In this document: positions 1,379-56,467 of the stretch, piece after piece
Position numbering within the stretch: the stretch's first letter is position 1
Layout: each line of letters opens with the position of its first letter
Origin: Mustelus asterias
Lineage: Eukaryota
DNA: 64,000 nucleotides
Assembly: GCF_964213995.1 (NCBI RefSeq)
Contig: NW_027590987.1
Span: 1-64,000, forward strand
Direction of reading: 5' to 3'
Notes under the pieces: model-generated
What the model was told of the DNA's origin: nothing
The model's database searches: none
Seen by the model: the letters and a program-made list of their open reading frames with translations, nothing else
Position numbers and translations under genes: made by a program

Positions 1379-2653
1379 ATGGAAGAAAAAAGCATCGATT
1401 GCAGTGGGGAGAATCTGTACGCGTGTTCTGTGTATGAATCATCTGACCCCACGAACCACAAGTGCCGTCACACTGAAGAGAAGCCGTTGAAATGTGGGGA
1501 CTGCGAGGAAGGATTCTATTCCCCATCTGAACTGGAAATTCACCAGCGAGTTCATGCTGGGGAGAGGCCGTTCACCTGCTCTGTGTGTGGGAAAGGATTC
1601 ACTCAGTCGTTCAACCTGCTGAGACACCGGCAAGTTCACACTGGAGAGAGACCATTCACCTGCTCCAAATGTGGGAAGGGATTCACTCAGTCCTCCAATC
1701 TGCTGGTACACCAGAGAGTTCACACCGGGGAGAGGCCATTCACCTGCTCCCAGTGTGGGAAGGGATTCATTCACACAAGCAACCTGCTATCACACCAGCG
1801 AGTTCACACTGACAAGAGACCTTTTAAATGTCCAGCATGTGGGAAGTGCTTTAAAAGTTCCCGGGAACTGACACGCCATCAGCAAGTTCACACGGAGGAA
1901 AGACCTTTTCACTGTGCAGAATGTGGAAAGGGCTATAAAAGTTCCTGGGAACTGACGTACCACCAACGTGTTCACACTGAGGAGAGACCGTTCAGGTGCT
2001 CTCACTGCGGGACTGGGTTCAGGCAATCATCTCAACTCACTGTACACCAGCGAATTCACACTGGGAAAAGGCCATTCACCTGCACGGAGTGTGGGAAGGG
2101 ATTTAGTCGGTCATCCCAACTCATGGTGCACCAGCGGGTTCACTCTGGAGAGAGACCTTTCAAGTGCCTCGACTGTGAGAATTACTATAAAAGTTCTGGA
2201 GAACTGAAATCCCATCAGCATGTTCACACTGACAAGAAACCGTTCAGATGCTCTCACTGTGCAATTGGATTCAGGCAATCATCCCATCTCACTGAACACC
2301 AGCGAATTCACACTGGGGAGAGACCGTTCACCTGCTCCAATTGTGGGAAGGGATTCACTCAGTCCTCCCAACTCATGGCTCACCAGCGGGTTCACACTGA
2401 GGAGAGACCTTTCAAATGCCCAGACTGTGGGAAGTGCTACAAACGATCTGGAGATCTGAGGTCCCACCAACGTGTTCACACTGACGAGAGGCCATTCATG
2501 TGCTCTCAATGTGGGACTGGGTTCAGTCGATCGTCGATACTAATTGAACACCAGCGAGTTCACACTGGGGAGAAACCATTCACCTGCTCCAAGTGTGGGA
2601 AGGGATTCACTCGGAAATCCAACCTGCTGACGCATCAGCGAATTCATAAGTGA
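1379..2653 (+). CDS. ZNF-A: tandem C2H2 zinc-finger protein, 14 fingers, no effector domain
   Basis: Open ORF from ATG 1379 to TGA 2651-2653 with 14 CxxC-x12-HxxxH units and TGERP-type linkers. Candidate splice acceptor TTTCACAG at ~1266. Confidence 0.9.
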
Positions 2654-3252: not shown

Positions 3253-4030
3253 ACCTTCGTCTTCATCAATGACATGTTGAAGGCTCCAGAGGAGATGCCG
3301 TAGCTTCTCCGCTCCGGGGAAGTACTGGACGACAAAGGGTATTCTGTCCACCATGTCCCGTGTTTGTCTTCTGAGGAGGTCGGTGCGGTTTATCGCTGTG
3401 GCACGTCGGAACTGTCGATCGATGAGTTGAGCGCCATATCCTGTTCTTTATGAGGGCATCTTTCAGCGCCTGGAGGTGTCTGTTGCGATCCTCCTCATCC
3501 GAGCAGATCCTGTGTATACGGAGGGCTTGTCCATAGGGGGTGACTTCTTTAACGTGTTTAGGGTGGAAGCTGGAGAAGTGGAGCATCGTGAGGTTATCCA
3601 TGGGCTTGCGGTATAGTGAGGTGCTGAGGTGACCGTCCTTAATGGAGATGTGTGTGTCCAAGAATGCAACCGATTCCGGAGAGTAGTCCATGGTGAGTCT
3701 GATGGTGGGGTGGAACTTGTTGATGTCATCATATAGTTGTCTCAGTGATTGTTCACCATGAGTCCAAAGGAAGAAAATGTCATCAATGTATCTAGTGTAT
3801 AGCATCAGTTGAAGGTCCTGTGCGGTGAAGATGTCTTGTTTGAACCTGTGCATGAAGATGTTGGCATATTGAGGTGCAAATTTGGTCCCCATGGCTGTTC
3901 CGTGTGTCTGGATGAAGAACTGGTTGTTGAAGGTGAAGACATTGTGGTCCAGGATTAAGCGGATGAGTTGTAAAATTGCATCTGGAAACTGGCAGTTGTC
4001 GGTGCTGAGCACTGAAACGGCCTGAGTGGC
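3253..4030 (-). mobile_element. Penelope-like element, reverse transcriptase fragment
   Basis: ORF 3266-4111 has GTAMGTKFAPQYANIFM, YTRYIDDIFFLW and FLD..I..SLYRKP, typical PLE RT motifs. Its 3' part is closely similar to 44110-44425. Confidence 0.88.
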
Positions 4031-4039
4031 CTGCTCATA

Positions 4040-4330
4040 GTTCATTTGTCCATATATTCTTATGTCTCTTTTCCTGGAAATCTCTCTCTCTCTCTTGGGA
4101 ATGTGCATCACACAACTTTTCCATTCGCACTGATGATTGAAATCTTTTTGAACAGGGCATCAGTGTTCCTCTGACATTTGATCACTGATGATAGTCGTGT
4201 CCGAATGAATCAAGATGTTTCTGACTGAAAATCCTTCCATTCTAATCCCTTGTCAATAAAAACATCTATCAAAGCAATGAATGTAAGCACAGGATAGAAA
4301 TTTGAAACTGATATTCTGGTTGTCACGTAA
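4040..4330 (-). pseudogene. Remnant 5' part of a ZNF coding exon, truncated by the PLE
   Basis: Minus strand reads AATTTCTATCCTGTG...GACAAG|GGATTAGAATGGAAGGATTTTCAGTCAGAAAC, homologous to the cluster-wide splice acceptor and to the ZNF-A exon start (GGTATTAGAAGAGGAGGATTTTCAGTCGGGAAAC). Confidence 0.55.
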
Positions 4331-6862: not shown

Positions 6863-8077
6863 ATGGAGAAACCGGGGAAAGATGAGGATTGTGGTAAGGA
6901 ATTCCATATCCCGTCTGCACTGCAAACTCATCAACATATTCGCACTGGGGAGAGACTGTTCCCCTGCTCCAAGTGTGGGGAAGGAGACTGCTCCCCATCT
7001 GCCCTGAAGATTCATCAATGCAGCCACACTGGGGAGAGGCCCTTCATCTGCTCTGAGTGTGGGAAGGGTTTTCTCCAGGCAGCCGACCTGTGGAATCACC
7101 AAGCAGTTCACAGTAGGGAGAGGCTGTACACCTGCTCTGAGTGTGGGAAGGGATTCACTCAGTTATCCCACCTGCTGACACACCAGCAAGTTCACACTGG
7201 GGAAAAACCATTCAACTGCTCTGAGTGTGGGAAGCAATTCAATCATTCATCTGAACTTTTGAATCACCAACAAATCCACACCGGAGAGCGACCATTCACC
7301 TGCTCCGACTGTGGAAAGGGTTTCACTCAGTCATCTCACCTGCAGATACACCAGCGAGCCCACACTAAGGAGAGGCCTTTCAACTGCTCTGAGTGCGGGA
7401 AGTGTTTTATTCAATTATCACACCTAGTGACTCACCAGGGAGTCCACAGGGGGGAGAGGCCGTTCCCCTGCTCCGAGTGTGGGAAGCGTTTTATTCAGTT
7501 ATCACATCTAGTGACACACAAAGGAACACACACAAGGGAGAGGCCATTCAGCTGCCCCGAATGTGGGAAACGTTTTATCCAATCGTCACACCTAATGTCA
7601 CACCAGGGAGTTCACAGCAGGGAGAGGCCATTCGTCTGCTCCGAGTGTGGGAGGCGTTTTATTCAATCATCCCACCTAGTGTCACACCAGGAGGTTCACA
7701 CCAGGGAGAGGCCATTTACCTGTTCCGAGTGTGGCAGGGGATTCATTCAGTTATCTGACCTGCAGAATCACCAGCAAGTTCACACCGGGGAGAGGCCGTT
7801 CACCTGCTCTGAGTGTGGGAAGGGATTTACTCGTTCAGCTAACCTGCAGGCACACCGACGTGTTCACACCAGGGAGAGACCATTCACCTGCTCTGAGTGT
7901 GGGAAAGGATTCGCTCTTTCATCTTATCTGCAGAGTCACCAGCAAGTTCACACTGGAGAGAGGCCGTTTATCTGCTCTGAGTGTGGAAAGGGATTCATTC
8001 AGTCATCCCACCTGCAGACACACCAACGAGTTCACAAGGATTCACAAAGGGATTCACTCAGTCATCCCACCTGCTGA
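6863..8077 (+). CDS. ZNF-B: C2H2 protein, 13 intact fingers plus 1 degenerate, rearranged C-terminus
   Basis: ACCATGG start at 6863. First finger has lost a Cys (KDEDC). The ORF runs out of frame into a partial finger at ~8035-8100. Confidence 0.85.
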
Positions 8078-11924: not shown

Positions 11925-14515
11925 GGAACATGTGAATTAGGAGCAGGAGAAGGCCACTCGGCCCCTCGAGCCTGCTCCACCATTCAATAGGGTCCCGGCT
12001 GATGTGATTGTAGCTTCAACTCCACTTTCCTTCTTACCCCTCACACCCTTTCACTCTCGTCAATCAAGAATCTATTAAATTCAGACTTCAGAATATTCAG
12101 TGAGCCAGCCTCCACCACTCTCTGTGGAAGAGAATTCCACACTGTAACAACCCTCTGAGAGAAAAGGTTTCTCCTCATCCCAGTCTTAAATGGGAGACCC
12201 CGTATTTTTAAACTGTGCCTCTAGTTCTCCTCTCTCTACAATCAACATCCACTCTGTCAAGTCCCCTCTGAATTTTATGTTTCAATCAGATCCTCTCTCA
12301 TTCTTCTAAACCCCTTTAGATACAGGCCGAACATGTCCAACATTTCCTTGTATGATAACACCCTCATCCCGTGAATCAGTCAACTAAACCTTCTCTGAAC
12401 TACTTCTCACACAAGTCCTCTCTTAAGTAAGGAGACCAAAACTGTACACCGTGCTCTAGATGTGGTCTCACCAATACCCTGAACAAATGCAGCAAAACAT
12501 CTCTGCAATAAACAACAATTCATTTACCTTTCTAATCATTTGCTGGATCCACACACTAACTTTTCCTGATTACGGTACCAGGACACCCAGATCCCTCTGT
12601 ACCTCAAAGTTCTGCAATCTCTCTCTGTTTAAATAATCAGCTGCTTTTCCATCCTTCCTGCCAAATGGACAAGTTCACATTATCCAAAAATCTTGTTCCA
12701 GTTGCCAACTTTTTGCCCACTCACTGACCCTATCTATATCGCTTTGCAGGCTTGTTATGGTCATTCACATCTCACTTTCCTACCTACCTTTGTGTTATCA
12801 ACAAATTTTGATCCTGTCATCCACATCATGAAAATAGTTTGTCAATAGTTGAGGGCCCAGCACTGGTCCCTGTGGCACTCCACAGGCTACACTTTGCCAT
12901 CCCAAAAATGACTTGTTTCTCCCTCAGCATGGTTTTGTGGCAGGTAGGTCGTGCCTTACTAACCTTATTGAGTTTTTTGAGAAAGTGACCAAGGAGGTGG
13001 ATGGGGGCAAGGCAGTGGACGTGGTATATATGGATTTTAGTAAGGCGTTTGATAAGGTTCACCATGGTAGGCTTCTGCAGAAAATGCAGATGTATGGGAT
13101 TGGGGGTGATCTAGGAAATTGGATCAGGAATTGGCTAGCGGATAGGAAACAGAGGGTGGTGGTTGATAGTAAATATTCATCATGGAGTGCGGTTACAAGT
13201 GGTGTACCTCAGGGATCTGTTTTGGGGCCACTGCTGTTTGTAATATTTATTAATGATCTGGATGAGGGTATAGTTGGGTGGATTAGCAAATTTGCTGATG
13301 ACACCAAAGTCGGTGGTGTGGTAGACAGTGAGGAAGGGTGTCGTAGTTTGCAGGAAGACTTAGACAGGTTGCAAAGTTGGGCCGAGAGGTGGCGGATGGA
13401 GTTTAATGCGGAGAAGTGTGAGGTAATTCACTTTGGTAGGAATAACAGATGTGTTGAGTATAGGGCTAACGGGAGGACTTTGAATAGTGTGGAGGAGCAG
13501 AGGGATCTAGGTGTATGTGTGCATAGATCCCTGAAAGTTGGGAATCAAGTAGATAAGGTTGTTAAGAAGGCATATGGTGTCTTGACGTTTATTGGTAGGG
13601 GGATTGAATTTAGGAGTCGTAGCGTTATGTTGCAACTGTACACAACTCTGGTGCGGCCGCACTTGGAGTACTGTGTGCAGTTCTGGTCCCCACATTACAG
13701 GAAGGATGTGGAGGCTTTGGAGAGGGTGCAGAGGAGGTTTACCAGGATGTTGCCTGGTATGGAGGGGAGATCCTATGAGGAGAGGCTGAGGGATTTGGGA
13801 TTGTTTTCGCTGGAAAGGCGGCGGCTAAGAGGGGATCTTATTGAAACATATAAGATGATTAGAGGTTTAGATAGGGTGGATAGTGATAGCCTTTTTCCTC
13901 TGATGGAGAAATCCAGCACGAGGGGGCATGGCTTTAAATTGAGGGGGGGTAGTTATAGAACCGATGTCAGGGGTAGGTTCTTTACCCAGAGGGTGGTGAG
14001 GGATTGGAATGCCCTGCCAGCATCAGTAGTAAATGCGCCTAGTTTGGGGGCGTTTAAGAGATCCGTAGATAGGTTCATGGACGAAAAGAAATTGGTTTAG
14101 GTTGGAGGGTCACAGTTTTTTTTTTTAACTGGTCGGTGCAACATCGTGGGCCGAAGGGCCTGTTCTGCGCTGTAATGTTCTATGTTCTATGTTCTATGTT
14201 CTATGTTCCTCTCTGTTTCCGATTAGCTCATCAATCCTCTATCCATGCTAATATAAAGAATCAACATGGATAAAATGCTAATATGCCTTATGCTACGAAT
14301 TCTTATTAAGTGTGGTAAACATTGATGTGGCACCTTGTCAAATGCCTTCTGGAAAACTAAATACACCACATCCACAGGTTCCACTTTATCCACATTGCTT
14401 GTTACTTCCTCAAAGAATCCAACACATCAATTAACAGGATGTCCCTTGCACAAAACCATGTTGACTCTGCCTGATTGCACGGAGATTATCTGTGTCCCAT
14501 CCCAGTCTCCTTAAT
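11925..14515 (-). mobile_element. Old CR1 LINE (11925-12924 plus 14209-14515), interrupted by a young CR1
   Basis: Minus strand has degenerate PQGPVLGP, FVDNTK and F.KAFDKVPH motifs and a CR1-type 3' UTR at ~11935-12000. Confidence 0.7.
12925..14208 (+). mobile_element. Young 5'-truncated CR1 LINE with intact RT C-terminal ORF
   Basis: Uninterrupted ORF: [33 protein letters not shown]. Ends in (TTCTATG)n tail. Confidence 0.95.
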
Positions 14516-14532
14516 AACAGAATGAACATGAT

Positions 14533-15917
14533 TCAGTCCTGCATGGGATTAGCAGCAACAGCAGAATCCAACCCCTGCAGTGACTTGTGAACTTGCTGGT
14601 GTCTCAGCAGATTGGCTGACCGAGCAAATCTCTTCCCACATACGGAGCAGGTGAACGATCTCTCTCCCGTGTGAACCTGCTGGTGTCTCAGCAGGTGGGA
14701 TGACTGAGTGAACCTTTTCCCACACATGGAGCAGGTGAATGATCTCTCCCCAGTGTGAATTTGCTGGTGTCTCAGCAGGTCCTTCGTGCTTTTAAAGCTC
14801 TTCTCACAGTCAGAACATTTAAAAGGTCTCTGATCAGTGTGGACCAGTTGATGTGCAATGAGCTGGGGTGGCTGAGTGAATCGTTTCCCACATGTGGAGC
14901 AAGTGAAGGGTTTCTCCCCAGTGTGAATTCGCTCGTGTATCAGAAGCTGGGCTGAATCAGTGAATCCCTTCCCACACACACAGTGCAAATGAATGGCTTC
15001 TCCCCGGTGTGAGCTCGCTGGTGTCTCAGACAGTGGGATGAATGGGTGAATCCCATCCCACACACCGAGCAGGTGAACGGTTTCTCCCCGGTGTGAACTC
15101 GCTGGTGTCTCAGACGGTGGGATGAATGGGTGAATCCCATCCCACACACCGAGCAGGTGAACGGTTTCTCCCCAGTGTGAACTCGCTGGTGTCTCAGACA
15201 GTGGGATGAATGGGTGAATCCCATCCCACACACCGAGCAGGTGAACGGTTTCTCCCCAGTGTGAACTCGCTGGTGTGTCACCAAATCCTGTTTACTTTTA
15301 AAGCTCTTCTCACAGTCAGAACACTGAAATGGTCTCTTATCAGAGTGAACTCGCTGGTGTGTTTGCAGCTGGGATAAACGTCCGAATCTCCTCTCACATA
15401 CGGAGCAGGTGAATGGCTTCTCCCCAGTGTGAGTGCGCTGATGGACTTGTAAATCATTTTTACTTTTAAATCTCTTCTCACAGTCAGAACACTGAAATGG
15501 TCTCCGATCAGTGTGAACAAGTTGGTGTGTCAGAAGGTGGGATGACTGAGTGAATCCCTTCCCACACACTGAGCAGGTGAACGGTCTCACCGCCATGTGA
15601 GTGCGCTGGTGTCTCAGGAGGTCCTTTGTGCTTTTAAAGCTTTTCTCACAATCAGAACACTGAAACAGTCTCTGATCGGAGTGAACCTCCCGGTGAATCA
15701 GGAGGCTTGATAAAGCATGACATCCCCTCCCACATTCGAGGCAGGTGAACGGCCTCTCACCAGTGTGAACACGCCGGTGTGTATAGAGGCTGGATGAGTA
15801 AGCAAATCCTTTCCCACACTCAGAGCAGGTGAACGGCCTCTCTCCAGTGTGAATGCGACGATGAATATCCAATTCGGACGGGTAATTGAATCCCCTCCCA
15901 CAGTCCACACATTTCAA
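14533..15917 (-). pseudogene. ZNF-C: ~16-finger C2H2 gene with lost start codon and a +2 frameshift
   Basis: Paralogous ATG-GAG-AAA is ACA-GAG-AAA, with an in-frame TAA upstream and no ATG between. An extra TG in TGTGTGTGTGGG at ~14975 shifts the frame between ORFs 14940-15917 and 14533-15231. Confidence 0.7.
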
Positions 15918-16801: not shown

Positions 16802-17149
16802 CTGGGTTCAGTTCTCCAGCTGCTGTCTGCAGACTGACAATAAAACCAATGGGTCTTATTGGGGGTGTTGGGGCCTCCAGCGGGTGTTTGTGAATCCTCC
16901 CCGCCCACCTCCCAGGGTTTCCTTCCTTCCCAGAGATCAGAGTCCTCATTGATTTGAGGCCAAAGTGTAACCTCTTATTTATTGTCCCCCTCCCCCATCC
17001 TCTGATGTGAACCATCCTCCAGTGGCTGAGCCAGGATGGGGCCGTTAACCTGGGCCTGTTCCCGGGAGGGAGGGAGGGAGAAGCCCCGCAGCTGCAAACC
17101 AGGGAGCTGACAATGATTCTGAAGGGTTTGCGGATCCACAAAGTGTTTC

Positions 17150-18140
17150 CAAATCCTCCCAGCCACCGCCTAACGCTGACTCCGCTTCTCCGGGACAAAC
17201 AAGCGCCAAGGACAGCAATGACACTGCGCATGCTCCACATCACAATGCCCGGGGACTGATTGACGGCAGCTCCGGACCAATAGGAAGAGGGGGCGGGACT
17301 GGCCGACCGAGCCGGAGCGGCTGGTCCTCCAACCAATCGGAGTGAACGAGGGGCGGGACTGGAGGACCGAGCGGGAGCGGCTGATCCTCCAACCAATCGG
17401 AGTGAATGAGAGGCGGGACCTGAAGCATGCGCAGTGCGGGTAATGGCGACGGGTAGACGGGCGGTTTTAATTTGGAGGCGAGATCAATACTAGGTAGGGG
17501 GCGGCGCGCGGGGAATGATAAATGTGGCGAGTGGGTGGAGAGACTTTGTAAACATGTTGTTCAAACCCAGACCCCGGAAATGAACTTCCCGGTCCCCCCT
17601 TTGTACCAAATGGAGCGGCAGCTTGTAGTGTTAGACCCGGGCTGACTGCCGCCATTGAGGCTGCATGTGGGAGGCCGGCAGGGATTGTGATCGGAGAGGG
17701 AAGCCCTGACGTCACAATGGAATGGGTGAGAGTGTGAGGTCACAATGGAATGGGTGAGGGTGTGACATCACAATGGAATGGGTGAGTGTGTGACGTCACA
17801 ATGGAATGTGATCGGAGAGCGAAATTTCACTCTGAAGCTCATTGGACAACTTCCGCATTGTGACGCTACGATAGAACCCTGCCTGAATCAGCCAATAGGA
17901 ATCACTGCGCTCCGCGGTGATGTCTCCGGGTTCCATGGTGCAGGCCCGGGCGTGCGGACCCGGGAGCCCTGCCCCCACCCATTGTTCCCCTCCCCCTACA
18001 CCACATCGAGCCAAGGTTTCCAGGCAACCGGCTGACGGCTCTGGCCAGAGCGAGAAGCCGCTCGGTGATCTCCCCCTCCCCCCGCCCGGGACTGCAAAAT
18101 GTGCGAGGGAGAGGGGAAGCTGTGCATATGCGGGGGAGAA
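17150..18140. promoter_or_regulatory. Bidirectional CpG-island promoter between ZNF-C(-) and ZNF-D(+)
   Basis: TGCGCATG / GCATGCGCA (NRF1), GGGGCGGGAC (Sp1), 3-4 CCAAT, CCGGAAAT and ACTTCC (ETS-like), TAATGGCG (YY1-like), TGACGTCA (CRE). Duplicated at 52900-53530. Confidence 0.75.
17707..17808. repeat. 28-bp minisatellite (~3.6 copies) carrying CRE-like octamers
   Basis: Unit TGA(CG/GG/CA)TCACAATGGAATGGGTGAGAGTG. Confidence 0.9.
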
Positions 18141-18594
18141 CCCACCCTCTGAATGAGAGAGGAAAGAATGTTCCATAGAAATTGTCTGTTCTGAATTTCT
18201 ATCCTGTACTGACACTGATGACTTTTGGAAACTCATTTTCCAGGATATTGAAAGAGGAATCACAGGCTGAAATCTCAAACGTCACGTCTAGATCTGACAG
18301 AGTCATATTCCTTGGGACCTCAATATCATCGGACTTTGAATCCAGAAGGAGAAATGATTGTCCAGTCTGTCGATTTGAAAAGATTTGAAATGTCAGTGTG
18401 AGTGAAAAAGCGTCAACACACTGCCACACTCGAGTGAGAGTGTTCCGATGCACTGACTAAAGAGCTTTAACCAGTTACACAGTCTGAATAAATATCACAC
18501 CATTCACAGCAGGTGGAGACTGTAATCTTGTTCTGTGTGTGGACGAAGTTTCAACTAATTGTCCACTCAAGAGTGAGGTAAGGACACCTGCACC

Positions 18595-20616
18595 ATGGCG
18601 AAACCATGGAAATGTGCGGACTGTGGGAAGGGATACGGAACCCCATCAGAGCTGGAAGCTCATCGGCGCAGCCACACTGGGGAGAGGCCGTTCATCTGCT
18701 CTCAATGTGGGAAGGGATTCAGTCAGTTATCCAACCTGCAGAGACACCAGCGAGTTCACACTGGGGAGAGGCCGTTCACCTGCTCTCAATGTGGGGAGGG
18801 ATTCACTCAGTCATCCCACCTGCAGAGACACCAGCGAGTTCACACTGGGGAGAGGCCCTTCACCTGCTCTCAGTGTGGGAAGGGATTCACTCGGATATCC
18901 AGCCTGCAGAGACACCAGCGAGTTCACACTGGAGAGAGGCCGTTCACTTGCTCTCAGTGTGAGAAGGAATTCACTTATTTATCCAGCCTGCAGACACACC
19001 AGCGAGTTCACACTGGGGAGAGGCCATTCACCTGCTCTCAGTGTGGGGAGGGATTCACTCGGTCATCCCGCCTGCAGTCACACCAGCGAGTTCACACTGG
19101 AGAGAGGCCGTTCACCTGTTCTCAATGTGGGGAGGGATTCACTCAGTCATCCCACCTGCAGAGACACCAGCGAGTTCACACTGGAGAGAGGCCGTTCACT
19201 TGCTCTCAGTGTGAGAAGGAATTCACTCATTTATCCAGCCTGCAGATACACCAGCGAGTTCACACTGGGGAGAGGCCGTTCACCTGCTCTCAGTGTGGGG
19301 ATGGATTCACTCAGTCATCCCGCCTGCAGAGACACCAGCGAGTTCACACTGGAGAGAGGCCATTTACCTGCTCTCAGTGTGGTAAGAGGTTCACTCAGTT
19401 ATCCAGCCTGCAGAGACACCAGCGAGTTCACACTGGGGAGAGGCCATTCACCTGCTCTCAGTGTGGGAAGGGATTCATTCAGTTATCCGAGCTGCGGACA
19501 CACCAGCGAGTTCATACAGGGGAGAGGCCATTCACTTGCTCTCAGTGTGGGGAGGGATTCACTCGGTCATCCAGCCTGCTGACACACCAGCGAATTCACA
19601 CTGGGGAGAGGCCGTTCACCTGCTCTCAGTGTGGGAAGGGATTCAATCAGTTATCCAACCTGCAGGCACACCAGCGAGTTCACACTGGGGAGAGGCCGTT
19701 CACCTGCTCTCAGTGTGGGAAGGGATTCACTCGGTCATCCGACCTGCGGGCACACCAGCGAGTTCACACTGGGGAGAAGCCCCCATTCACCTGCTCTCAG
19801 TGTGGGAAGGGATTCACTCGGTCATCCCACCTGCAGAGACATCAGCGAGTTCACACTGGGGAGAGACCGTTCACCTGCTCTCAATGTGAGAAGGGATTCA
19901 CTCTGTCATCCCACTTGCAGACACATCAGCGAGTTCACACCGGAGAGAGACCATTCACCTGCTCTCAGTGTGCGAAGGGATTCATTCAGTTATCCAGCCT
20001 GCAGAGACACCAGCGAGTTCACACTGGAGAGAGGCCGTTCACCTGCTCTCAGTGTGGGAAGGGATTCACTCAGTTATCCAGCCTGCAGACACACCAGCGA
20101 GTTCACACTGGGGAAAGGCCGTTCACCTGCTCTCAGTGTGGGAAGGGATTCACTCGGTCAACCCATCTGCGGACACACCAGCGGGTTCACACTGGAGAGA
20201 GACCGTTCACCTGCCCTCAGTGTGGGAAGGGATTCACTCGGTTATCCAGCCTGCAGACACACCAGCGAGTTCACACTGGGGAGAGACCATTCACCTGCTC
20301 TCAGTGTGGGAAGGGATTCACTCGGTCATCCGACCTGCGGACACACCAGCGGGTTCACACAGGGGAGAAACCATTCACCTGCTCTCAGTGTGGGCAGGGA
20401 TTCACTCAGTCATCCAGCCTGCGGGCACACCAGCGAGTTCACACTGGGGAGAGGCCGTTCACCTGCTCTCAGTGCGGGCAAGAATTCACTCAGTTATCCA
20501 ACCTGCAGACGCACGAGCGAGTTCACACTGGGGAGAGGCCGTTCACCTGCTCTGTGTGTGGGAAGGGTTTCAGCGTTTCATCCCGGCTGCTGAGGCACCA
20601 GCAAGTTCACGAGTGA
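18595..20616 (+). CDS. ZNF-D: 673-aa protein with 24 tandem C2H2 fingers
   Basis: ACCATGG start and uninterrupted, highly homogeneous 84-bp repeats. One linker has an extra Pro (TGEKPP). Confidence 0.92.
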
Positions 20617-20851
20617 TTCCAGAGGTTGGATTCTGCTGTTATTGTTCCTGCTCTCAATTACATCCAGGATTGCATTTTGTTCATTCTCACAGTTGGTCAA
20701 TGGGAAGGGTCAGAGGGTTTCTTTGTGCTGGACTGGCTGGTCTCAGCCTCCAGTGGGTTGATGCTCTTTGAGTCTTTTTGCAAATACCTGGTTTCAAATG
20801 TCACAAGGATCACAGAGTGACAGGGTGTTAGGAAGTTTAGAGATATTTAGT

Positions 20852-21923
20852 CAGAAGAAAACAGAGGTTGGCAGTGCAAAGGTACCTTTCTGAATGGAGG
20901 GCTGTGACAAGTGACATTCCGCAGGGATCAGTGCTGGGACTTTTGCTGTTTGTAATATATATAAATGATTTGGAGGAAAATGTAACTGGTTTGATTGGTA
21001 AGTTTGTGGACGACACAAACGTTGGTGGAATTGCGGATAGCGATGGGGAACGGCAAAGGATACAGCAGGATATAGAGCAGTTGGAGAATTGGGCGGAGAG
21101 ATGGCAGATGAAGTTTAATCCGGACAAATGTGAGGTAATGCATTTTGGAAGGTCTAATACAGAATGGAAATATACAGTAAATGGCAGAACCCTTAAGAGC
21201 ATTCATAGGCAGAGGGATCTCGGTGTACAGGTACACAGGTCATTGAAAGTGGTAATGCAGGTGGAGAAGGTAGTCAAGAAAGCATATGGCATGCTTGCCT
21301 TCATCGGCCGGGGCATTGAGTTTAAAAATTGGCAAGTCATGTTGCAGCTTTATAGAACCTTAGTTTGACCGCACTTGGAATCTAGTGTTCAATTCTGGTC
21401 ACCACACTACCCGAAGAATGTGGAGGCTTTGGAGAGGGTACGGAAAATATTTATCAGGATGCTGCCTGGTGTGGAGGGCATTAGCTATGAGGAGAGTTTG
21501 GAGAAACCTGGTCTGTTCTCACTGGAACGACGGAGGTTGAGGGGAGACCTGATAGAAGTCTCCAAGATTATGAGGGGCATGGACAGAGTGGATAGTCAGA
21601 AGCTTTTTCCCAGAGTGGAAGAGTCAGTTACTGGGGGGCATAGGTTTAAGGTGCGAGGGGCAAGGTTTAAAGGAGATGTACAAGGCAGGTTTTTTACACA
21701 GAGGGTGGTGGGTGCCTGGAACTCGTTGCCGGGGAAGGTAGTGGAAGCAGATACGATAGTGACTTTTAAGATGTGTCTTGACAAATATATGAATAGCATA
21801 GGAATAGAGGGATATGGTCCCGGAAAGGTAGGGGGTTTTAGTTCAGACAGGCAGCATGGTTGCTGCAGGCTTGGAGGGCCAAAGGGCTTGTTTCTGTGCT
21901 GTAATTTTCTTTGTTCTTCGTTC
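20852..21923 (+). mobile_element. 5'-truncated CR1 LINE with internal stop
   Basis: PQGSVLG, FVDDTN, RGDLIEV and FFTQRVV motifs. Absent from the homologous 3' flank of ZNF-E at ~29050. Confidence 0.9.
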
Positions 21924-21929
21924 TGTTTG

Positions 21930-22290
21930 GAACATCCCAAATGCCCATCCAATTTCCTTTTTAATTGTTTATTGTCTCCACTTCCTCCACCCTCATAGAC
22001 AGCGAGTTTCAGGTCATTACCATTCACTGCATCAGAATATTCTTCCTCACATCTCCCCCCTCAATTCCCCCCCCACCCCACTGCCCCCCCCCCCCCCAGC
22101 CCCCCACTCCCCCCTCCCTTGCATCTCTAACCCAAAACAAGAAATCTGTGTCCCCCCTCGTCCTTGTTCCATCAGCTAATGGGAACAGCTTTTCTTTGTC
22201 CACCTTATCTAAACCTGTCAGAATCTTGTCCCCCATCTATCAAATCTCCCCTCAACCTCCTTTGCTCCAAGGAAAACAACCCCAGCCTGA
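21930..22290 (-). mobile_element. Old CR1 3' fragment shared by ZNF 3' flanks, with poly-C expansion at 22055-22120
   Basis: Homologous to 36975-37300 and 29065-29165. Reads GLFSLEQRRLRGDL on the minus strand. Confidence 0.75.
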
Positions 22291-22714
22291 CATTGACAAT
22301 AAAGAACAAACTAACAGAATATGTTACTGTCTGAAATCAAATGGGAATGTTTAATTTCTGTTTGAAAGATATTGTGAATGTATTGTCCTGGACAATAAAG
22401 GAATTGGAATAACACACCTTGGGTGTGGTTGAATGGAATATATCAATCTGATATTCACCTACAGTCCAGTGAAAGTCTGGAATATGTAGCTGGAAGTCCC
22501 TTCCTAACAGCAATGTGGGTGTACGTACACCTCAGGCATTGCAGCAGTTCAGGAAGGCACCCTTGGGGTTGGGGTTGACCACGGCCAAGGCAGCTCCATA
22601 CAGCCACATATTCTGTTATAATTGAAGGACTGCAGATTGAATGTGAGGCATTGTGGGACTGGACTATCTTGACCACATTCCTGTGACTGCCCGGAAACTC
22701 ATGTGTCTATTTTA

Positions 22715-24232
22715 AAGCACAAAGAACAATAGAGCACAGGAACAGGCCCTTCGGCCCTCCAAGCCTGCGCTGATCATGTGTTCCTAACTAGACCATCCAT
22801 TTGTATCCCTCTATTCCTAGTCGTTCATGTGGTTATCAAGATGAGTCTTAAATGTTTCTCGCGTGTCTGCCTCAACCACCTTGCTTGGTAGTGCACTCCA
22901 GGCCCCCACCACCCTCTGTGTAAAATACGTCCCCCGCATATCTGTATTGAACCTTGCCCCCCTTACCTTGAACTTGTGACCCCTTGTGTTTGTCATTGCT
23001 GACCTGGAAAAAAGCTTCCAACTGTTCACCCTATCTATGCCCTTCGTAATTTTGTAAACTTCTATTAGGTCGCCCCTCAACCTCCGTCTTTCCAGGGAGA
23101 ACAACCCGAGTTTACTCAATCTCTCCTCATAGCTAATACCCTCCATACCAGGCAACATCCTGGTAAACCTTTTCTGTACTCTCTCCAAAGTCTCCGCGTC
23201 CTTCTGGTAGTGTGGTGACCAGAACTGGACACAGTATTCCAAATGCGGCCGAACCAACGTTCCATATAACTGCAACACCATGTGCCAACTTTTATACTCT
23301 ATGCCCCAATAAAGGCAAGCATGCCATATGCCTTCTTCACCACCTTTTCCACCTGTGCTGCCACCTTTAAGGATCGTGGACTTGCACACCCAGATCCCTC
23401 TGTGTGTCTATACTCCTGATGGTTCTGCCATTTATTGTATAGCTCCCCCCTGCATTAGATCTACCAAAATGCATCACTTCACATTTATTTGGATTAAATT
23501 CCATCTGCCATTTCTCCACCCAATTTTCCAGCCTATCTATATCCTGCTGTATTCTCTGACAATGTTCATCACAATCCACAACTCCAGCAATCTTTGTGTC
23601 GTCCGCAAACTTACTGATCACACCAGCTACATCTTCCTCCAAATCATTTATATATATCACAAACAGCAGAGGTCCCAGTACAGAGCCCTGTAGAACACCG
23701 CTAGTCACAGACCTCCAATCAGAAAAAGACCCCTCCACTGCTACCCTCTGTCTTCTATGGCTAAGCCAGTTCTGTACCCATCTAGCTGGTTCACCTTTGA
23801 TCCCATGAGATTTAACCTTTTGCACCAGCCTTCCATGAGGGACGTTGTCAAACGCTTTACTAAAATCCATGTCGACGACATCCACGGCCCTTCCCTCGTC
23901 AGTCATTTTTGTCACCTCCTCAAAAAACTCAACCAAATTTATGAGGCATGACCTCCCTTGTACAAAACCATGTTGTCTATCGCTAATGAGATTATTCAGT
24001 TCTAAATGTGTATAGATCCTATCTCTAAGAATCTTCTCCAACAATTTCCCTACCACGGACATCAAGTTCACTGGCCTATAATTACCCGGGTTATCCTTGC
24101 TACCCTTCTTAAATAACGGGACCACATTTGCTATCCTCCAATCCTCTGGGACCTCACCTGTGTCCAATGAAGAAACAAAGATTTTTGTGAGAGGCCCAGC
24201 AATTTCATCTCTTGTCTCTCTCAGTAACTGGA
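22715..24232 (-). mobile_element. CR1 LINE (RT region), frameshifted
   Basis: [35 protein letters not shown]. 3' tail at ~22715-22760. Confidence 0.92.
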
Positions 24233-26257
24233 AACTTGATAAGGTGCCCCATGCAAGGCTTATTGAGAAAGTGAGGGGGCATGGGATCCAAGGGGACGTT
24301 GCTTTGTGGATCCAGAACTGGCATGCCCACAGAAGGCAAAGAGTGGTTATAGACGGGTCATATTCTGCATGGAGGTCGGTCACCAGTGGAGTGCCCCAGG
24401 GATCTGTTCTGGGACCCTTACTCTTTGTGATTTTTATAAATGACCTGGATGAACAAAGAACAGTACAGCACAGGAAACAGGCCCTTCGGCCCTCCAAGCC
24501 TGTGCTGCTCCTTGGTCCAACTAGACCAATCGTTTGTATCCCTCCATTCCCAGGCTGCTCATGTGACTATCCAGGTAAGTCTTAAACGATGTCAGCGTGC
24601 CTGCCTCCACCACCCTACTTGGCAGCGCATTCCAGGCCCCCACCACCCTCTGTGTAAAAAACGTCCCTCTGATGTCTGAGTTATACTTCGCCCCTCTCAG
24701 CTTGAGCCCATGACCCCTCGTGATCGTCACCTCCGACCTGGGAAAAAGCTTCCCACTGTTCACCCTATCTATACCCTTCATAATCTTGTACACCTCTATT
24801 AGATCTCCCCTCATTCTCTGTCTTTCCAAGGAGAACAACCCCAGTCTACCCAATCTCTCCTCATAGCTAAGACCCTCCATACCAGGCAACATCCTGGTAA
24901 ACCTTCTCTGCACTCTCTCCAATGCCTCCACGTCCTTCTGGTAGTGCGGCGTCCAGAACTGGACGCAGTACTCCAAATGTGGCCTAACCAGCGTTCTATA
25001 CAGCTGCATCATCAGACTCCAGCTTTTATACTCTATACCCCGTCCTATAAAGGCAAGCATACCATATGCCTTCTTCACCACCTTCTCCACCTGTGTTGCC
25101 ACCTTCAAGGATTTGTGGACTTGCACACCTAGGTCCCTCTGTGTTTCTATACTCCTGATGACTCTGCCATTTATTGTATAACTCCTCCCTACATTATTTC
25201 TTCCAAAATGCATCACTTCGCATTTATCCGGATTAAATTCCATCTGCCACCTCTCCGCCCAATTTTCCAGCCTATCTATATCCTGCTGTATTGCCCGACA
25301 ATGCTCTTCGCTATCCGCAATTCCATGAGGAAGTGAAAGGATGGGTTGGCAAGTTTGCTGATGACACAAAGGTTGGAGGTGTTGTGGATAGTGTGGAGAG
25401 ATGTCAGAAGGTGCAGCGAGACATTGATAGGATGCAAGACTGGGTGGAGAAGTGGCAGATGGAGTTCAACCCAGATAAGTGTGAGGTGGTTCATTTGGCA
25501 GGTCAAATAGGATGGCGGAATATAATATTAATGGTAGGACTCTTGGCAGAGTGGAAGATCAGAAAGATCTTGGGGTCAGAGTTCGTAAGACGCTCAAAGC
25601 AGCTGTGCAGGTTGAGGCTGTGGTTAAGAAGGTGGATGGTGTACTGGCCTTCATCAATCGAGGAATTGAGTTTAGGAGTCGTGAGATAATGTTGCAGCTA
25701 TATAAGACCCTGGTCAGACCACACTTGGGGTACTGTGCTCAGTTCTGGTCGCCTCATTACAGAAGGATGTGGAAATCATAGAAAGGGTGCAGAGGAGATT
25801 TACAAGGATGTTGCCTGGATTAGGTGACATGCCTTATGAGGATAGGTTGAGTGAGCTCAGTCTTTTCTCCTTGGAGACATGAAGGATGAGGGGTGACCTG
25901 ATAGAGGTGTATAAGATGTTGAGAGGTATTGATCGAGTGGATAGTCAGAGGCTTTTTCCCAGGGCTGAAATGGTTGCCACAAGACCACACAGGTTTAAGG
26001 TGCTGGGGAGTAGGTACAGAGGAGATGTCAGGGGTAAGTTTTTCACTCAGAGGTTGGTGGGTGCGTGGAATGGGCTGCCAGCAACGGTGGTGGAGGCGGA
26101 TTCGATTGGGTCTTTTAAGAGACTTTTAGATAAGTACATGGAACTTAGTAAGATAGAGGGTTATAGGTAAGCCTAGTAATCGCTAAGGTAGGGACATGTT
26201 CGGCACAACTTTGTGGGCTGAAGGGCTGGTATTGTGCTGTAGTTTTTCTGTGTTTCG
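24233..26257 (+). mobile_element. CR1 LINE (24233-24452 plus 25325-26257), split by an antisense CR1
   Basis: FINDLDE|EEVKGWVGKFADDTK reads through the junction. ATGA is duplicated at the break. Confidence 0.85.
24453..25324 (-). mobile_element. Young 5'-truncated CR1 nested in a CR1
   Basis: ORF 24521-25324 is open to the ORF2 stop. Tail TGTACTGTTCTTTGT. Confidence 0.9.
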
Positions 26258-26738: not shown

Positions 26739-27372
26739 CAAAGAACAAAACAGCACAGGAACAGGCCCTTCGGCCCTCCAAGTCTGCACCGATCATGTAT
26801 TCCTAACATACCACCCGTTTGTATCCCTCTATTCCCAGTCTGTTCATGTGGTTATCTAGATAAGTCTTAAATGATCCTAGCGTGTCTGCCTCAACCACCT
26901 TGCTTGGCAGTGCATTCCAGGCCCCCACCACCCTCTGTGTAAAATACGTCCCCCGCATATCTGTATTGAACCTTGCCCCCCTTACCTTGAACTTGTGACC
27001 CCTTGTGTTTGTCATTTCTGACCTGGGAAAAAGCTTCCAACTGTTCACCCTATCTATGCCCTTCGTAATGTTATAAACTTCTATTAGGTTGCCCCCTCAA
27101 CCTCTTTCCAGAGAGAACAACCCTAGTTTACTCAATCTCTCCTCCTAGCTAATACCCTCCATACCAGGCAACATCCTGGTAAACCTTTTCTGCACTCTCT
27201 CCAAAGCCTCCACGTCCTCTGGTAGTGTGGTGACCAGAACTGGACGCAGTATTCCAAATGCGGCCTAACCAACGTTCGATATAACTGCAACATCATGTGC
27301 CAACTTTTATACTCTATGCCCCATCCAATAAAAGCAAGCATGCCATATGCCTTCACCACTTTTTCCACCTGT
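26739..27372 (-). mobile_element. CR1 3' fragment, same subfamily as 22715-23355
   Basis: RPHLEYCVQFWSPHY and RGHKFKVRGARFNTDMRGTYFTQRVV. Confidence 0.88.
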
Positions 27373-27871
27373 GTGTTTCATTTGTTTTTTGTGGATGTTT
27401 GTAGATGTGTTTTATCATTGTTTTGGGCTACATTTGTTCAGGTTTATCTTTCTGGGGAATTAACCTTGTCTTGAGTCTTTAATTAAAGGCATTTTTGGAA
27501 GTTTAAAAACAGGATCACAAGAACGCTTAAGTAATTAATTTTGGTCATTGTTGTTGTAAAGCATATGCTAAGTTTCTCTGTTTGTGTATGGATGATATTT
27601 GTAGGTTGAATGCTTCAAGCTTTGAGGTTTTCTGTCTGTGATTTAAATCAAACAGATTTTTAAAAAAGGAAGTGTGATCAATAAAACTTTTTTTGTTCAG
27701 AAGTTATGAACCTGGAGCCATATTTACTGGCCAGAGACAGGATTCCAGGATATTTTACTAAACATCTGGAAATTTTAATCCGGATACAATTCACCCATGT
27801 GAGAATGAGAGTTTTAATTTGTAATGGTTCTTTAAAATTTGACACATGTGAAATGATTCTGACCAATCCTG

Positions 27872-28408
27872 TGTTGGATTGATCTTGGGTTAAACTTCCT
27901 GTCAGGTCCAAAGATTTATTCCTGACACAAGTCACACAAAGGAAAGGAAAATTCTGGAATTGGATACTGAAGAAAAGAGTTTAAAAAGAGAGAGTATTAA
28001 ATAGAAATGATTCCCAGACCATGTGGTCATTCGATTAAAACAAAGGAAGGGTGCTGACGTCCATTTGAGAACTTTTAATCCGCCCCATTTCTAACTAAGG
28101 GAGTCGATGTACAAAGAAAGCCCAAGAAAGACCCCCCCCCCAAGGGGGGTCTGGAAAGCATGATGGGGCACCTGTCCATGAGATGATCACAAAGCCCCAT
28201 AATGCCCAGATACTAATTTTATTGAACCTATAATGTATGTAATCTATCACCATTCTGATTGGATTGTGTCCAGCCGGGATGGGCTGAGTAGCTGGATAAG
28301 AATTGATGATATTCTTTGTTGGGTGGAGTTACACATGGTCAGTCCCTGTGGCTTCTCCCCGCTGGCGTAACTCAATAAACTGTTTGTCGATTGAATCAGG
28401 CACAACAC
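27872..28408 (+). mobile_element. Solo LTR-like element, copy 1 (3' part partly deleted)
   Basis: Starts TGTTGG, has AATAAA at ~28374, ends CAACA. Homologous to 61147-61716. Confidence 0.65.
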
Positions 28409-28410
28409 AC

Positions 28411-28804
28411 TGGGAAGAGATACAAAGTGCCCTCTCCACTGGAAGCTCATCGGCACAGCCACACTGGGGAGAGGCCGTTCGCCTGCTGGGTGTGTGGGAA
28501 GGGATTCACTGATTCATCCACTCTGCAGAGACACCAGCAAGTTCACACTGGTGAGAGTGCATTCACCTGCTGTCAGTGTGGGAAGGGATTTACTCGGATA
28601 TGAAGCCTGCAGACACACCAGCGAGATCACACAGGGGAGAGACCATACAGCTGCTTTCAATGTGGGAAGGGATTCAGTAAGTCATCCAACCTACAGAAAC
28701 ACCAGCGAGTTCACACAGGAGAGCGGCCATTCAACTGCTCTGCATGTGGGAAAAGATTCACTCAGTTATCGAATCTGCTGAGACACCAGCGAGTTCAGAA
28801 GTGA
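28411..28804 (+). pseudogene. ZNF-E: truncated 5-finger pseudogene
   Basis: First finger lacks its CxxC and the ATG, in-frame TGA at 28601-28603, last finger H>Q. Followed by the cluster-conserved 3' block. Confidence 0.85.
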
Positions 28805-39560: not shown

Positions 39561-39705
39561 GAAATATATAACGTAGCTACAGTTCCATATTACAAGATAT
39601 TCAGATCCCAAGGAATATGGCTCTGTCTAGACGTGACGGTTGAGATTTTTGCCTTTGATTCCTCATTCAATATCCTATGAAATGAGTTTGCAAAAGTCAT
39701 CACAG

Positions 39706-40067
39706 TCATAGAATCATAGAAACCCTACAGTGCAGAAGGAGGCCATTCGGCCCATCGAGTCTGCACCGACCACAATCCCACCCAGGCCTTACCCGCTAAT
39801 CCCTTTTTTTTTTTACCCGCTAATTTACCCGCTAATCCCTCTAACCTACGCATCCCAGGACTCTAAGGGACAATTTTTAACCTGGCCAATCAACCTAACC
39901 CGCACATCTTTGGACTGTGGGAGGAAACCGGAGCACCCGGAGGAAACCCACGCAGACACGAGGAGAATGTGCAAACTCCACACAGACAGTGACCTGAGCC
40001 GGGAATCGAACCCAGGACCCTGGAGCTGTGAAGCAGCAGTGCTAACCACTGTGCTACCGTGCCGCCC
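39706..40067 (-). mobile_element. Young V-SINE, tail type A
   Basis: Nearly identical to 11461-11801. Inserted in a duplicated splice-acceptor block. Confidence 0.9.
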
Positions 40068-50798: not shown

Positions 50799-51947
50799 TC
50801 AGTCCTGGATATGATTAACAGCATCGATAAGTGTAGAATCCAAACCTTGCAGTCGTTTGTGAACTCGCCGGTGTGTTAGCAGGTGGGATGACTGAACAAA
50901 TCCCTTTCCACAGACATTACAGGTGAACGGCCTCTCCCCAGTGTGAACTCGCTGGTGTTTCAGAAGATAAGAGAAATGAGAAAATCCCTTCCCACAGACA
51001 GAGCAGGTAAATGGCCTCTCCCCACTGTGAACTCTCTGATGTGTCAGCAGGTTGGATGACTGACTGAATCCCTTCCCACACATGGAGCAGGTGAACGGCC
51101 TCTCCCCAGTGTGAACTCGCTGGTGATTCAATAGGTTGGATGAACGAGTGAATCCCTTCCCACATACGGAGCAAGTGAATGGCCTCTCCTCACTGTGAAC
51201 CTGCTGCTGTGTCAGAAGGTTGTATGAACGGGTGAATCCCTTCCCACATTCAGAGCAGGTGAACGGTCGATCCCCTGTGTGGAGTTGCTGGTGTATCAGA
51301 AGGTTGGATGAATTAATGAATCCCTTCCCACAGTCTGAGCAGGTGAAGGGCCTCTCCCTAGTGTGAATTCTCTGGTGGTTCAATAGGGCAGATGGATGGC
51401 TGAATCCCTTCCCACACACACAGCAGGTGAATGGCCTCTCCCCAGTGTGAGTATATTGGTGCGTCAGCAGATCTTTTTTATTTTTAAAGCTCTTCTCACA
51501 GTGGGAACAATTAAAAAGTTTGTTATCAGAGTGAACAAGTTGATGTGTCTGCAAGTGGGATGACTGAATGAATCCTTTCCCACACACACAGCAGGTGAAC
51601 GGTCTCTCCCCAGTGTGAATACGTTGGTGCGTCAGCAGATCTTTTTTGCATTTAAAACTCTTCCCACAGTCAGAACATGGAGACAGTCTCTCATCAGTGT
51701 GAACAAGTTGGTGTGTCACAATGTGGGATGAGCGAGTGAATCCCTTCCCACACACAGGGCAGGTGAACGGCCTCTCCCCAGTGTGAACCCGTTGGTGAGT
51801 CAGAAGGTTGTATGAATGGGTGAATCCCTTCCCACAAACAGAGCAGGTGAACGGTCTCTCCCCAGTGTGACTGCGCTGATGAACTTCCAGTTGTGATGGG
51901 AAACTGATCCCTTTCCCACAATCCACACATTTCCACTGTTTCTCCAT
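50799..51947 (-). CDS. ZNF-G: 382-aa protein, 13 C2H2 fingers (one H>Q degenerate) with translated C-terminal tail
   Basis: ATG at 51947 (MEKQWKC), uninterrupted, ends [20 protein letters not shown]. Confidence 0.9.
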
Positions 51948-55288: not shown

Positions 55289-56467
55289 ATGGATAAACCA
55301 TGGAAATGTGGGGACTGTGGGAAGGGATACAGAGCCCCATCTAAGCTGGAAGCTCATCGACGTAGCCACACTGGGGAGAGACCATTCACCTGCTCTCAAT
55401 GTGGGAAGGGATTCACTCGATTATCCCTCCTGCAGAGACACCAGCGAGTTCACACTGGAGAGAGGCCATTTTCCTGCTCTCAATGTGAGAAGGGATTCAG
55501 TCAGTTATCCGACCTGCAGAGACACCAACGAGTTCACACTGGGGAGAGGCCGTTCACCTGCTCTCAGTGTGGGAAGGGATTCACTCAATTATCCACCCTG
55601 CGGACACATGAACGAGTTCACACTGGGGAGAGGCCATTCACCTGCTCTCAGTGTGGGAAAGGATTCATTCTGTTATCCAGCCTGCGGATACACCAGCGAG
55701 TTCACACTGGGGAGAAACCATTCACCTGCTCTCAGTGTGGGAAGGGATTCATTCAGTTATCCAGCTTGCAGAAACACCAGCAAGTTCACACAGGAGAGAG
55801 GCCGTTCACCTGCCCTCAGTGTGGGAAGGGATTCATTCTGTTATCCCTCCTGCAGAGACACCAACGAGTTCACACTGGGGAGAGGCCATTCAACTGTTCT
55901 CAGTGTGGGAAGGGATTCACGAACTCATCCATCCTGCGGACACACGAACGAGTTCACACTGGGGAGAGACCGTTCACCTGCTCTCAGTGTGGGAAGAGAT
56001 TCACTCAGTCAGCCGACCTGCAGAGACACCAGCTACGTCACACAAGGGAGAGGTCGTTCACCTGCTCTCAGTGTGGGAAGGGATTCATTCTGTTATCCAG
56101 CCTGCGAATACACCAGCGAGTTCACACTGGGGAGAAACCATTCATCTGCTCTCAGTGTGGGAAGGGATTCACTAACTCATCTGATCTGCGGACACACCAG
56201 CGAGTTCACACAGGGGAGAGGCCGTTCACCTGCTCTCAGTGTGGGAAGGGATTCACTCAGTCATCCCACCTGCAGAGACACCAGCGAGTTCACACTGGGG
56301 AGAGACCATTCAACTGTTCTCAGTGTGGGAAGGGATTCACTCAGTCATCCAACTTGCAGACACACCAGCGAGTTCACACTGGGGAGAGGCCATTCACCTG
56401 CTCTCAGTGTGGGAAGGGATTCAGAGTTTCATCCCACCTGCTGAGACACCAGCGAGTTCACGAGTGA
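55289..56467 (+). CDS. ZNF-H: 392-aa protein with 14 C2H2 fingers
   Basis: ACCATGG start at 55289, uninterrupted. 5' and 3' flanks nearly identical to ZNF-D. Confidence 0.9.

What the first reader, a model, noticed from the sequence alone, without database searches (positions are those of the whole stretch)
18595..18675. Conserved atypical first finger (WKCxDC..PSxLExH) as a possible protein-interaction module
Seen: finger 1 differs from the array and is conserved between otherwise divergent paralogs. [91 protein letters not shown] ..VPSPLEAH; B keeps PS but is degenerate. It has Pro at helix +1 and an acidic residue at +5, and it escapes the homogenisation of downstream fingers. Established: some C2H2 fingers mediate protein contacts (e.g. 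Ikaros C-terminal fingers). Inference: it is the family's effector or dimerisation unit.
Basis: partly seen in the sequence, partly recalled or inferred. Interest (0 to 1): 0.7.

Follow-up and report, generated by a model that had tools for sequence, protein, structure and literature searches.

The report
Shark zinc-finger arrays' conserved cap finger
Zinc-finger genes of sharks and rays begin with a distinctive, acidic 'cap' finger that probably reads DNA poorly and keeps two unusual residues fixed; it might be a protein-docking site, but nothing here shows that it is.

Summary
The motif is real. The window is a shark C2H2-ZNF cluster (8 arrays). The cap fingers form one clade, 52-56% identical to their own arrays, and the Pro+1/acid+5 pair is position-restricted: 29 of 118 fingers in array positions 1-2, 0 of 258 later ones (32 shark/ray proteins), 1 of 2686 in 163 other named proteins. 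It is not always finger 1, and as a whole it is no more conserved than its neighbours (dN/dS 0.33-0.46, like fingers 2, 3 and last; DNA identity about equal to the non-coding 5' flank). Shared ancestry and an edge effect therefore explain most of the pattern. But Pro+1 (40 of 40) and Glu/Asp+5 (39 of 40) are kept at least as well as the zinc cysteines (38, 37 of 40), including in a diverged ray lineage, while base-reading positions drift and the helix is acidic. Best reading: a specialised, weakly base-reading end-cap that still docks on the array (canonical linker, Arg+9). 'Effector or dimerisation unit' is untested; hallmarks of known oligomerising fingers are missing. No known effector domain was found, so cofactor binding stays open (about 0.25).

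The parts
18595..18675 (+). Gene D: start codon in ACCATGG context, then the cap finger (finger core 18607-18675)
18676..20616 (+). Gene D: canonical linker and 23 further fingers (internal ones 83-90% identical to each other, last 76%)
18244..18594 (+). Gene D: presumed last-exon 5' part (from a putative splice acceptor); spacer and decayed fingers with stops and frameshifts, closed in the cap's frame, with a 15-codon upstream ORF
   Evidence: exon status inferred from the acceptor-like sequence, no transcript seen
1487..1555 (+). Gene A cap finger; follows a decayed finger inside the ORF (start at 1379)
6875..6943 (+). Gene B degenerate cap (first Cys and last His lost, Pro+1 kept, Gln at +5); the next finger also has Pro+1
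15849..15917 (-). Gene C cap finger (Asp at +5); no ATG at the usual place, array frameshifted
28412..28462 (+). Array E: 3' remnant of a cap finger in a truncated array with a stop codon
38469..38537 (-). Gene F cap finger (ATG at 38549)
51867..51935 (-). Gene G cap finger (ATG at 51947); modelled as a normal finger with the helix starting at Pro+1
55301..55369 (+). Gene H cap finger (ATG at 55289)

Best explanation
It is the family's end-cap finger. One ancestral finger near the 5' end of the elasmobranch tandem-ZNF gene was inherited with the 5' flank by every duplicate (shown: one clade, shared flank). It stays out of the unit shuffling that homogenises the array because it sits at the edge and is about 45% diverged from array units (inferred). 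In most genes the fingers upstream decayed and a start codon stands in the old linker, so the cap is the N-terminus (shown in sequence; translation not shown). It folds as a normal C2H2 finger (model) and docks onto finger 2 through the canonical linker and Arg+9 (inferred). Its base-contact positions drift and its helix is acidic, so it adds little sequence specificity or affinity (inferred). Pro+1 starts the helix and Glu+5 can pair with Arg+8/+9; these residues most likely fix the cap's own helix and its packing on the array, making it a low-affinity terminal unit (inferred, least certain step).
For: Clade and divergence from the array. Flank shared across paralogs, identity about equal to the finger's. 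dN/dS 0.33-0.46, like fingers 2, 3 and last. On a tree of 33 intact caps: 111 changes against 138 in the next finger; Pro+1 0, Glu+5 2, Arg+9 1, against -1 9, +3 10, +6 11. Masked-profile scan: Pro+1 40 of 40, Glu/Asp+5 39 of 40. The Pro codon varies synonymously (CCA, CCG, CCC) across the 8 window copies. Mean net charge +0.5 against +2.1, helix -1.3 against +0.6 (26 caps, 258 later fingers). Helix begins at Pro+1 in the AlphaFold2 model. Positions 1 and 5 are minor for specificity, and Arg9 with a small -2 residue defines the common inter-finger geometry (passages); the next finger has T/S/A at -2 in 31 of 33.
Against: Ser at +1 is the array consensus (177 of 258) and one transition away from Pro, so a purely structural role does not easily explain why Pro is never replaced; a partner-binding surface would explain it as well. 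Weak DNA reading is inferred from residue types, not measured. 18 of the 33 caps come from one species (Heterodontus), and retrieval used words from the cap.
Confidence: 0.45

Rival explanations
1. The cap is the family's effector: its Pro+1/Glu+5/Arg+9 helix stripe binds a cofactor (for example a corepressor), standing in for the KRAB or FiNZ domain.
For: The fixed residues lie at i, i+4, i+8; +1 and +5 are 100-200 degrees from +3 and +6 on a helical wheel. Pro+1 and Glu/Asp+5 are kept at least as well as the cysteines and survive in two Narcine fingers whose hairpin has changed. No Pfam match in 116 upstream ORFs; the spacer from acceptor to cap is closed in 7 of 7 genes; no KRAB, SCAN, BTB or ZAD accession is listed for the 32 shark/ray hits. 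[quoted passage not shown]
Against: The finger as a whole is no more constrained than its neighbours. At least 4 of 40 caps have lost zinc ligands, and B keeps an open 13-finger ORF with a broken cap. Only 3 of the 14 shark/ray proteins from the broader search carry a cap (many look N-terminally mis-predicted). Arg+9 has a DNA-docking explanation.
Confidence: 0.25
2. Pure edge effect: an ordinary finger that escaped shuffling and looks conserved only through common descent and slow divergence.
For: Cap DNA identity about equals that of the non-coding flank (G-H 0.75 against 0.76, F-G 0.77 against 0.79, D-H 0.90 against 0.88). The dead finger just upstream is still recognisable in horn shark and keeps its own Glu+5 in 13 of 15 (Fisher p 0.28 against the cap). 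Last fingers of D and F also partly escape (0.76, 0.74). A conserved first finger outside a homogenised array is known from PRDM9 (passages).
Against: Pro+1 is unchanged in 42 of 42 (40 plus B and E) against 25 of 105 non-consensus residues in the dead finger (Fisher p 1e-4, rows not independent), while neighbouring cap positions change 9-16 times. The flank diverges less than synonymous sites among distant paralogs, so it is not a neutral yardstick.
Confidence: 0.18
3. The cap reads a fixed DNA triplet (possibly cytosine or methyl-cytosine through Glu) and anchors all family members.
For: Canonical spacing, linker and Arg+9; Tyr-1 in 27 of 40 and Ser+2 in 32 of 40. Glu reading methyl-C is recalled, not from a call.
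Against: Positions -1, +3 and +6 change 9, 10 and 11 times on the tree, and the helix is acidic.
Confidence: 0.07
4. The cap is a homo- or heterodimerisation finger like BCL11A ZF0, Drosophila CGx-Phi fingers or the Ikaros pair.
For: N-terminal atypical fingers do oligomerise in those proteins (passages and sections).
Against: It is not isolated from the array, has no CGx-Phi extension, no five-residue hydrophobic helix start, normal 12-residue spacing and an HX3H end, and is not a C-terminal pair (against 46, 50, 58).
Confidence: 0.05

Closest known systems
Classical C2H2 finger (Pfam PF00096) in tandem arrays
   Same: All six intact caps pass the curated cut-off (25.9-28.6 bits against 25.2); normal spacing, linker and predicted fold; Atlas neighbours of a homologue's cap are generic C2H2 clusters.
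   Different: Trp and C-x-D-C hairpin, Pro+1, Glu+5, acidic helix; restricted to array positions 1-2 in sharks and rays.
PRDM9 first finger
   Same: Conserved first finger that stays out of the concerted evolution of its array (passages of PMC4874674 and PMC3388066).
   Different: That finger lies apart from the array of one gene; the shark cap is joined by a canonical linker and shared by a large paralog family.
BCL11A ZF0/ZF1 and Drosophila CGx-Phi fingers
   Same: Atypical N-terminal fingers proposed or shown to act as interaction modules in ZNF proteins.
   Different: Those are isolated from the DNA-binding cluster and have a hydrophobic helix patch or an extra beta-strand; the cap has neither.
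FiNZ-ZNF and KRAB-ZNF genes
   Same: Clustered, rapidly changing tandem-finger genes with one large finger exon; a short conserved acidic N-terminal element.
   Different: FiNZ and KRAB are non-finger domains on a separate upstream exon; here the candidate is itself a finger in the array exon and no upstream domain was found.

Membership tests
C2H2 finger PF00096 | C-x2-C-x12-H-x3-H, above the Pfam cut-off | tested here: met
   6 of 6 intact window caps; B was not scanned and lacks two ligands
C2H2 finger PF00096 | beta-beta-alpha fold | tested here: met
Ikaros dimerisation fingers | pair of fingers at the C-terminus | tested here: not met
   definition from the Introduction of PMC12774644; the cap is N-terminal, array position 1 or 2
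Drosophila CGx-Phi dimerising finger | single N-terminal finger at least 100 residues from the cluster | tested here: not met
   definition; a standard-length linker (TGE[RK]P type) joins it to the next finger in the 33 caps, which were selected for that
Drosophila CGx-Phi dimerising finger | CGx-Phi motif upstream of the core | tested here: not met
   upstream residues are a linker-derived MEKP or TGEKP type
BCL11A ZF0/ZF1 type | isolated finger with five hydrophobic residues at the helix start; ZF0 is CCHC with 14-residue spacing | tested here: not met
   definition; cap helix start is mostly N/S-Y-P-S-E/Q, spacing 12, CCHH
Oligomerising fingers in general | self-association in solution | not testable with these tools
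   needs SEC-MALS, NMR or two-hybrid
Ubiquitin-binding finger (Pfam zf_UBZ) | match to the UBZ profile | tested here: not met
   0 of 6 caps match PF18439 at E up to 0.1; other UBZ profiles not singled out
KRAB-, SCAN-, BTB- or ZAD-ZNF | effector domain upstream of the array | tested here: not met
   0 of 116 upstream sense-strand ORFs of 42 aa or more match Pfam at E 0.01; cap frame closed from the acceptor in 7 of 7 genes; A's upstream region is cut by the window edge and E was not scanned
FiNZ-ZNF | 28-residue non-finger acidic domain on its own exon | tested here: inconclusive
   no FiNZ profile was used; the closed spacer makes an in-frame upstream exon unlikely in these 7 genes
TE-silencing ZNF repressors | binds transposons and recruits a corepressor | not testable with these tools
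   needs ChIP, tethering and pull-down

The most novel reading that the evidence does not exclude
Sharks and rays, which lack KRAB, turned one finger of their tandem arrays into the effector: a cap finger whose Pro+1/Glu+5 face recruits a cofactor, a third independent solution beside KRAB and FiNZ, built inside the array exon.
Probability: 0.22. Interest if true: 0.75.

Novelty: new variant of a known kind. Interest (0 to 1): 0.42.

Why it matters
The motif is a near-diagnostic tag for an elasmobranch tandem-ZNF family (1 of 2686 fingers in other named proteins) and can be used to annotate it and find true gene starts. How KRAB-less shark ZNFs act on chromatin is open; the cap is the one candidate surface found here and two point changes would test it. 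If it proves only structural, the result is a modest case of an array end finger escaping homogenisation, as in PRDM9.

Tried and rejected
Homodimer prediction of gene F residues 1-58 with zinc: no answer, score 0.00 in two runs, alignment not used, controls not folded; this is no evidence either way. Whole-finger dN/dS: does not separate the cap from other fingers; pairwise, 28 codons, low power. First homologue search gave only 4 candidates; the profile searches ranked long arrays first and showed 120 of 2848 and 120 of 7642 hits, so the family was sampled, not enumerated. PDB sequence search returned generic finger arrays. Atlas search with a homologue's cap returned generic C2H2 clusters. 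UBZ, Ikaros, CGx-Phi and BCL11A types rejected as above. Read-through of the conserved upstream TGA codons was considered and rejected because frameshifts and other stops accompany them. A proline-directed phosphorylation site was rejected because -1 is Tyr in 27 of 40. The exact species and cluster membership of the window's proteins stayed unchecked; no shark genome was available, so no genome-wide test was run. The representative-library search and fold searches were not used. Ten paper searches listed nothing on this finger; only listings were seen for most papers and no supplements were read.

Full report
Setting. The window holds eight C2H2 arrays (A-H; 109 finger matches) among retroelement-like ORFs (that label is from recall). 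The closest proteins are from sharks (Mustelus, Pristiophorus, Chiloscyllium), so this is an elasmobranch tandem zinc-finger cluster. The species was not determined.

Observation. The quoted motifs are all present. At 18595-18675 gene D starts MAKPWKC and carries Pro at helix +1 and Glu at +5. None of the 102 other fingers in the window has both. The six intact caps form one clade (support 0.90) and share 52-56% DNA identity with their own arrays, against 80-90% among internal fingers of D, F and H; the last fingers of D and F are mildly divergent too (0.76, 0.74). So the finger does escape homogenisation.

Corrections. D, F and H are close paralogs (flanks 85-91% identical). Between distant paralogs the cap shares 13-16 of 23 residues, finger 2 14-18 and the last finger 12-18. 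The cap is not an ancestral first finger: in B, C, D, F, G and H it follows remnants of up to three fingers broken by stops and frameshifts, and in B, D, F, G, H the ATG stands in the old linker in an ACCATGG context; in A it follows a decayed finger inside the ORF. C and E look like pseudogenes, and B's cap has lost two zinc ligands.

Other species. Among 32 named shark and ray proteins (48 unnamed hits left out), fingers with Pro+1 and Glu/Asp+5 number 29 of 118 in array positions 1-2 and 0 of 258 later; among 163 other named proteins, 1 of 2686. Caps were found in seven genera (Heterodontus, Mustelus, Scyliorhinus, Cetorhinus, Chiloscyllium, Pristiophorus and, with a changed hairpin, the ray Narcine), and a skate protein keeps the helix remnant. 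The cap is not universal in this sample: 21 of the 32 proteins have one, and only 3 of the 14 from the broader search, many of which look truncated. Retrieval used cap-derived words and 18 of 33 caps are from one species, so frequencies are biased; position is not.

Constraint. As a whole the cap is not special. Its dN/dS (0.33-0.46) matches fingers 2, 3 and last in the distant sets, and its DNA identity matches the non-coding flank. On a tree of 33 intact caps it has 111 changes against 138 in the next finger. The pattern inside it is special: Pro+1 0 changes, Glu+5 2, Arg+9 1, while -2, -1, +3, +6 and +10 change 16, 9, 10, 11 and 12 times; in the next finger +1, +5 and +9 change 9, 10 and 8 times. 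A profile with those three columns masked found 40 caps, 4 with lost ligands: Pro+1 40 of 40, Glu/Asp+5 39, Arg+9 35, Cys1 38, Cys2 37; it missed B's cap (Pro, Gln) and E's remnant (Pro, Glu). The same scan gave 17 hits in the 163 other proteins, 2 with Pro+1 and none with both. Using the dead upstream finger as a yardstick (15 of 17 rows kept; 25 of 105 residues off consensus), Pro+1 stands out (Fisher p 1e-4, rows not independent) but Glu+5 does not differ from the dead finger's own Glu (13 of 15, p 0.28). So selection on Pro+1 is well supported and on Glu+5 only moderately. The flank is a poor neutral control: among distant paralogs it diverges less than synonymous sites.

Mechanism. The cap passes the PF00096 cut-off and models as a normal finger whose helix starts at Pro+1. 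It keeps the canonical linker and Arg+9 facing Thr/Ser/Ala at -2 of the next finger (31 of 33), the common inter-finger geometry described in PMC7293014 (passages). Positions 1 and 5 contribute little to base specificity (PMC4330361 and PMC7293014, passages). The base-contact positions drift among residues without Arg, Asn or His at +3 or Arg at +6, and the helix is acidic (-1.3 against +0.6). I conclude that it rides at the end of the array and reads bases weakly (inference). What the fixed Pro and Glu do is not shown. My first choice is a structural cap (0.45); a cofactor-binding face is second (0.25) because Ser, the array residue at +1, is one transition away yet never appears, and because no other effector was found: 0 of 116 upstream ORFs match Pfam, the spacer is closed in 7 of 7 genes, and KRAB is reported as lost in cartilaginous fishes (PMC8455134, passage). 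Against an essential effector, at least 4 of 40 caps plus B's have lost zinc ligands. Pure edge effect gets 0.18, fixed DNA reading 0.07, dimerisation 0.05.

Comparison. It is a member of the C2H2 family. It behaves like the conserved first finger of PRDM9 (PMC4874674, PMC3388066; passages) in escaping homogenisation. It fails the defining features of the Ikaros pair, Drosophila CGx-Phi fingers (PMC12774644: abstract, Introduction and one Results section) and BCL11A ZF0/ZF1 (PMC12006351, passages). It is not FiNZ or KRAB, which are separate-exon domains (PMC10547256: passages and one section; that text does not mention sharks). PMC5120217 (passages) notes that homogenisation mostly reflects recent unit duplication. 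A shark genome-size preprint has no mention of zinc fingers (10.1101/2025.06.08.657570). PMC11603059 (passages) suggests TRIM33 as a partner for fish ZNF domains.

Novelty and verdict. Ten searches listed no description of this finger; the library lacks most subscription papers and I read no supplements, which for PMC10547256 may list shark ZNF genes. It is a new variant of a known kind: a real, family-diagnostic cap finger with a small selected surface and an unproven function. Interest 0.42; 0.75 if it proves to be the effector (probability about 0.22).

Noticed in passing
window 18244-18594 (+) and the matching 5' regions of B, C, F, G, H: Spacer plus decayed fingers stays 67-91% identical between these paralogs and diverges less than synonymous sites among distant ones; C, D, F, G and H each carry a 15-codon upstream ORF 246-273 nt before the cap's first Cys codon. 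Possible translational control.
   Followed up: partly
window 16802-17808 and 52516-53464: C/D and G/H are head-to-head pairs sharing a CpG-rich block 93-98% identical, far above their coding exons, with NRF1-like motifs (label recalled) and a short tandem repeat; suggests recent conversion or duplication of a bidirectional promoter.
   Followed up: partly
arrays A, C, G (for example window 15323, 15491, 15659, 51509, 51677): A second recurring atypical finger class (CSDCEKSFK type after an xDxRPF linker) sits inside arrays, is as divergent from its neighbours as the cap and recurs in horn shark.
   Followed up: no
window 6863-7027 (+): Gene B has two degenerate Pro+1 fingers in tandem ahead of an open array; the second groups next to the cap clade.
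   Followed up: partly
P0122 residues 1046-1068 (coelacanth protein): A second-position finger resembles the cap (C-G-D-C hairpin, Pro+1, acidic helix, Ala at +5); homology or convergence not resolved.
   Followed up: partly
window 39625-39726 and 40068-40162: Partial copies of the intron-end/acceptor region lie upstream of gene F on the opposite strand.
   Followed up: no
window 27000-28400: Array E's 5' end is replaced by repeated sequence that matches several other places in the window, consistent with truncation by an insertion.
   Followed up: partly
window 3266-4159, 12853-14100, 20841-25689, 44103-44738, 46436-47398, 57635-60148: Many reverse-transcriptase-like ORF fragments between the ZNF genes (CR1/L2-like and Penelope-like; labels recalled, not tested).
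   Followed up: no
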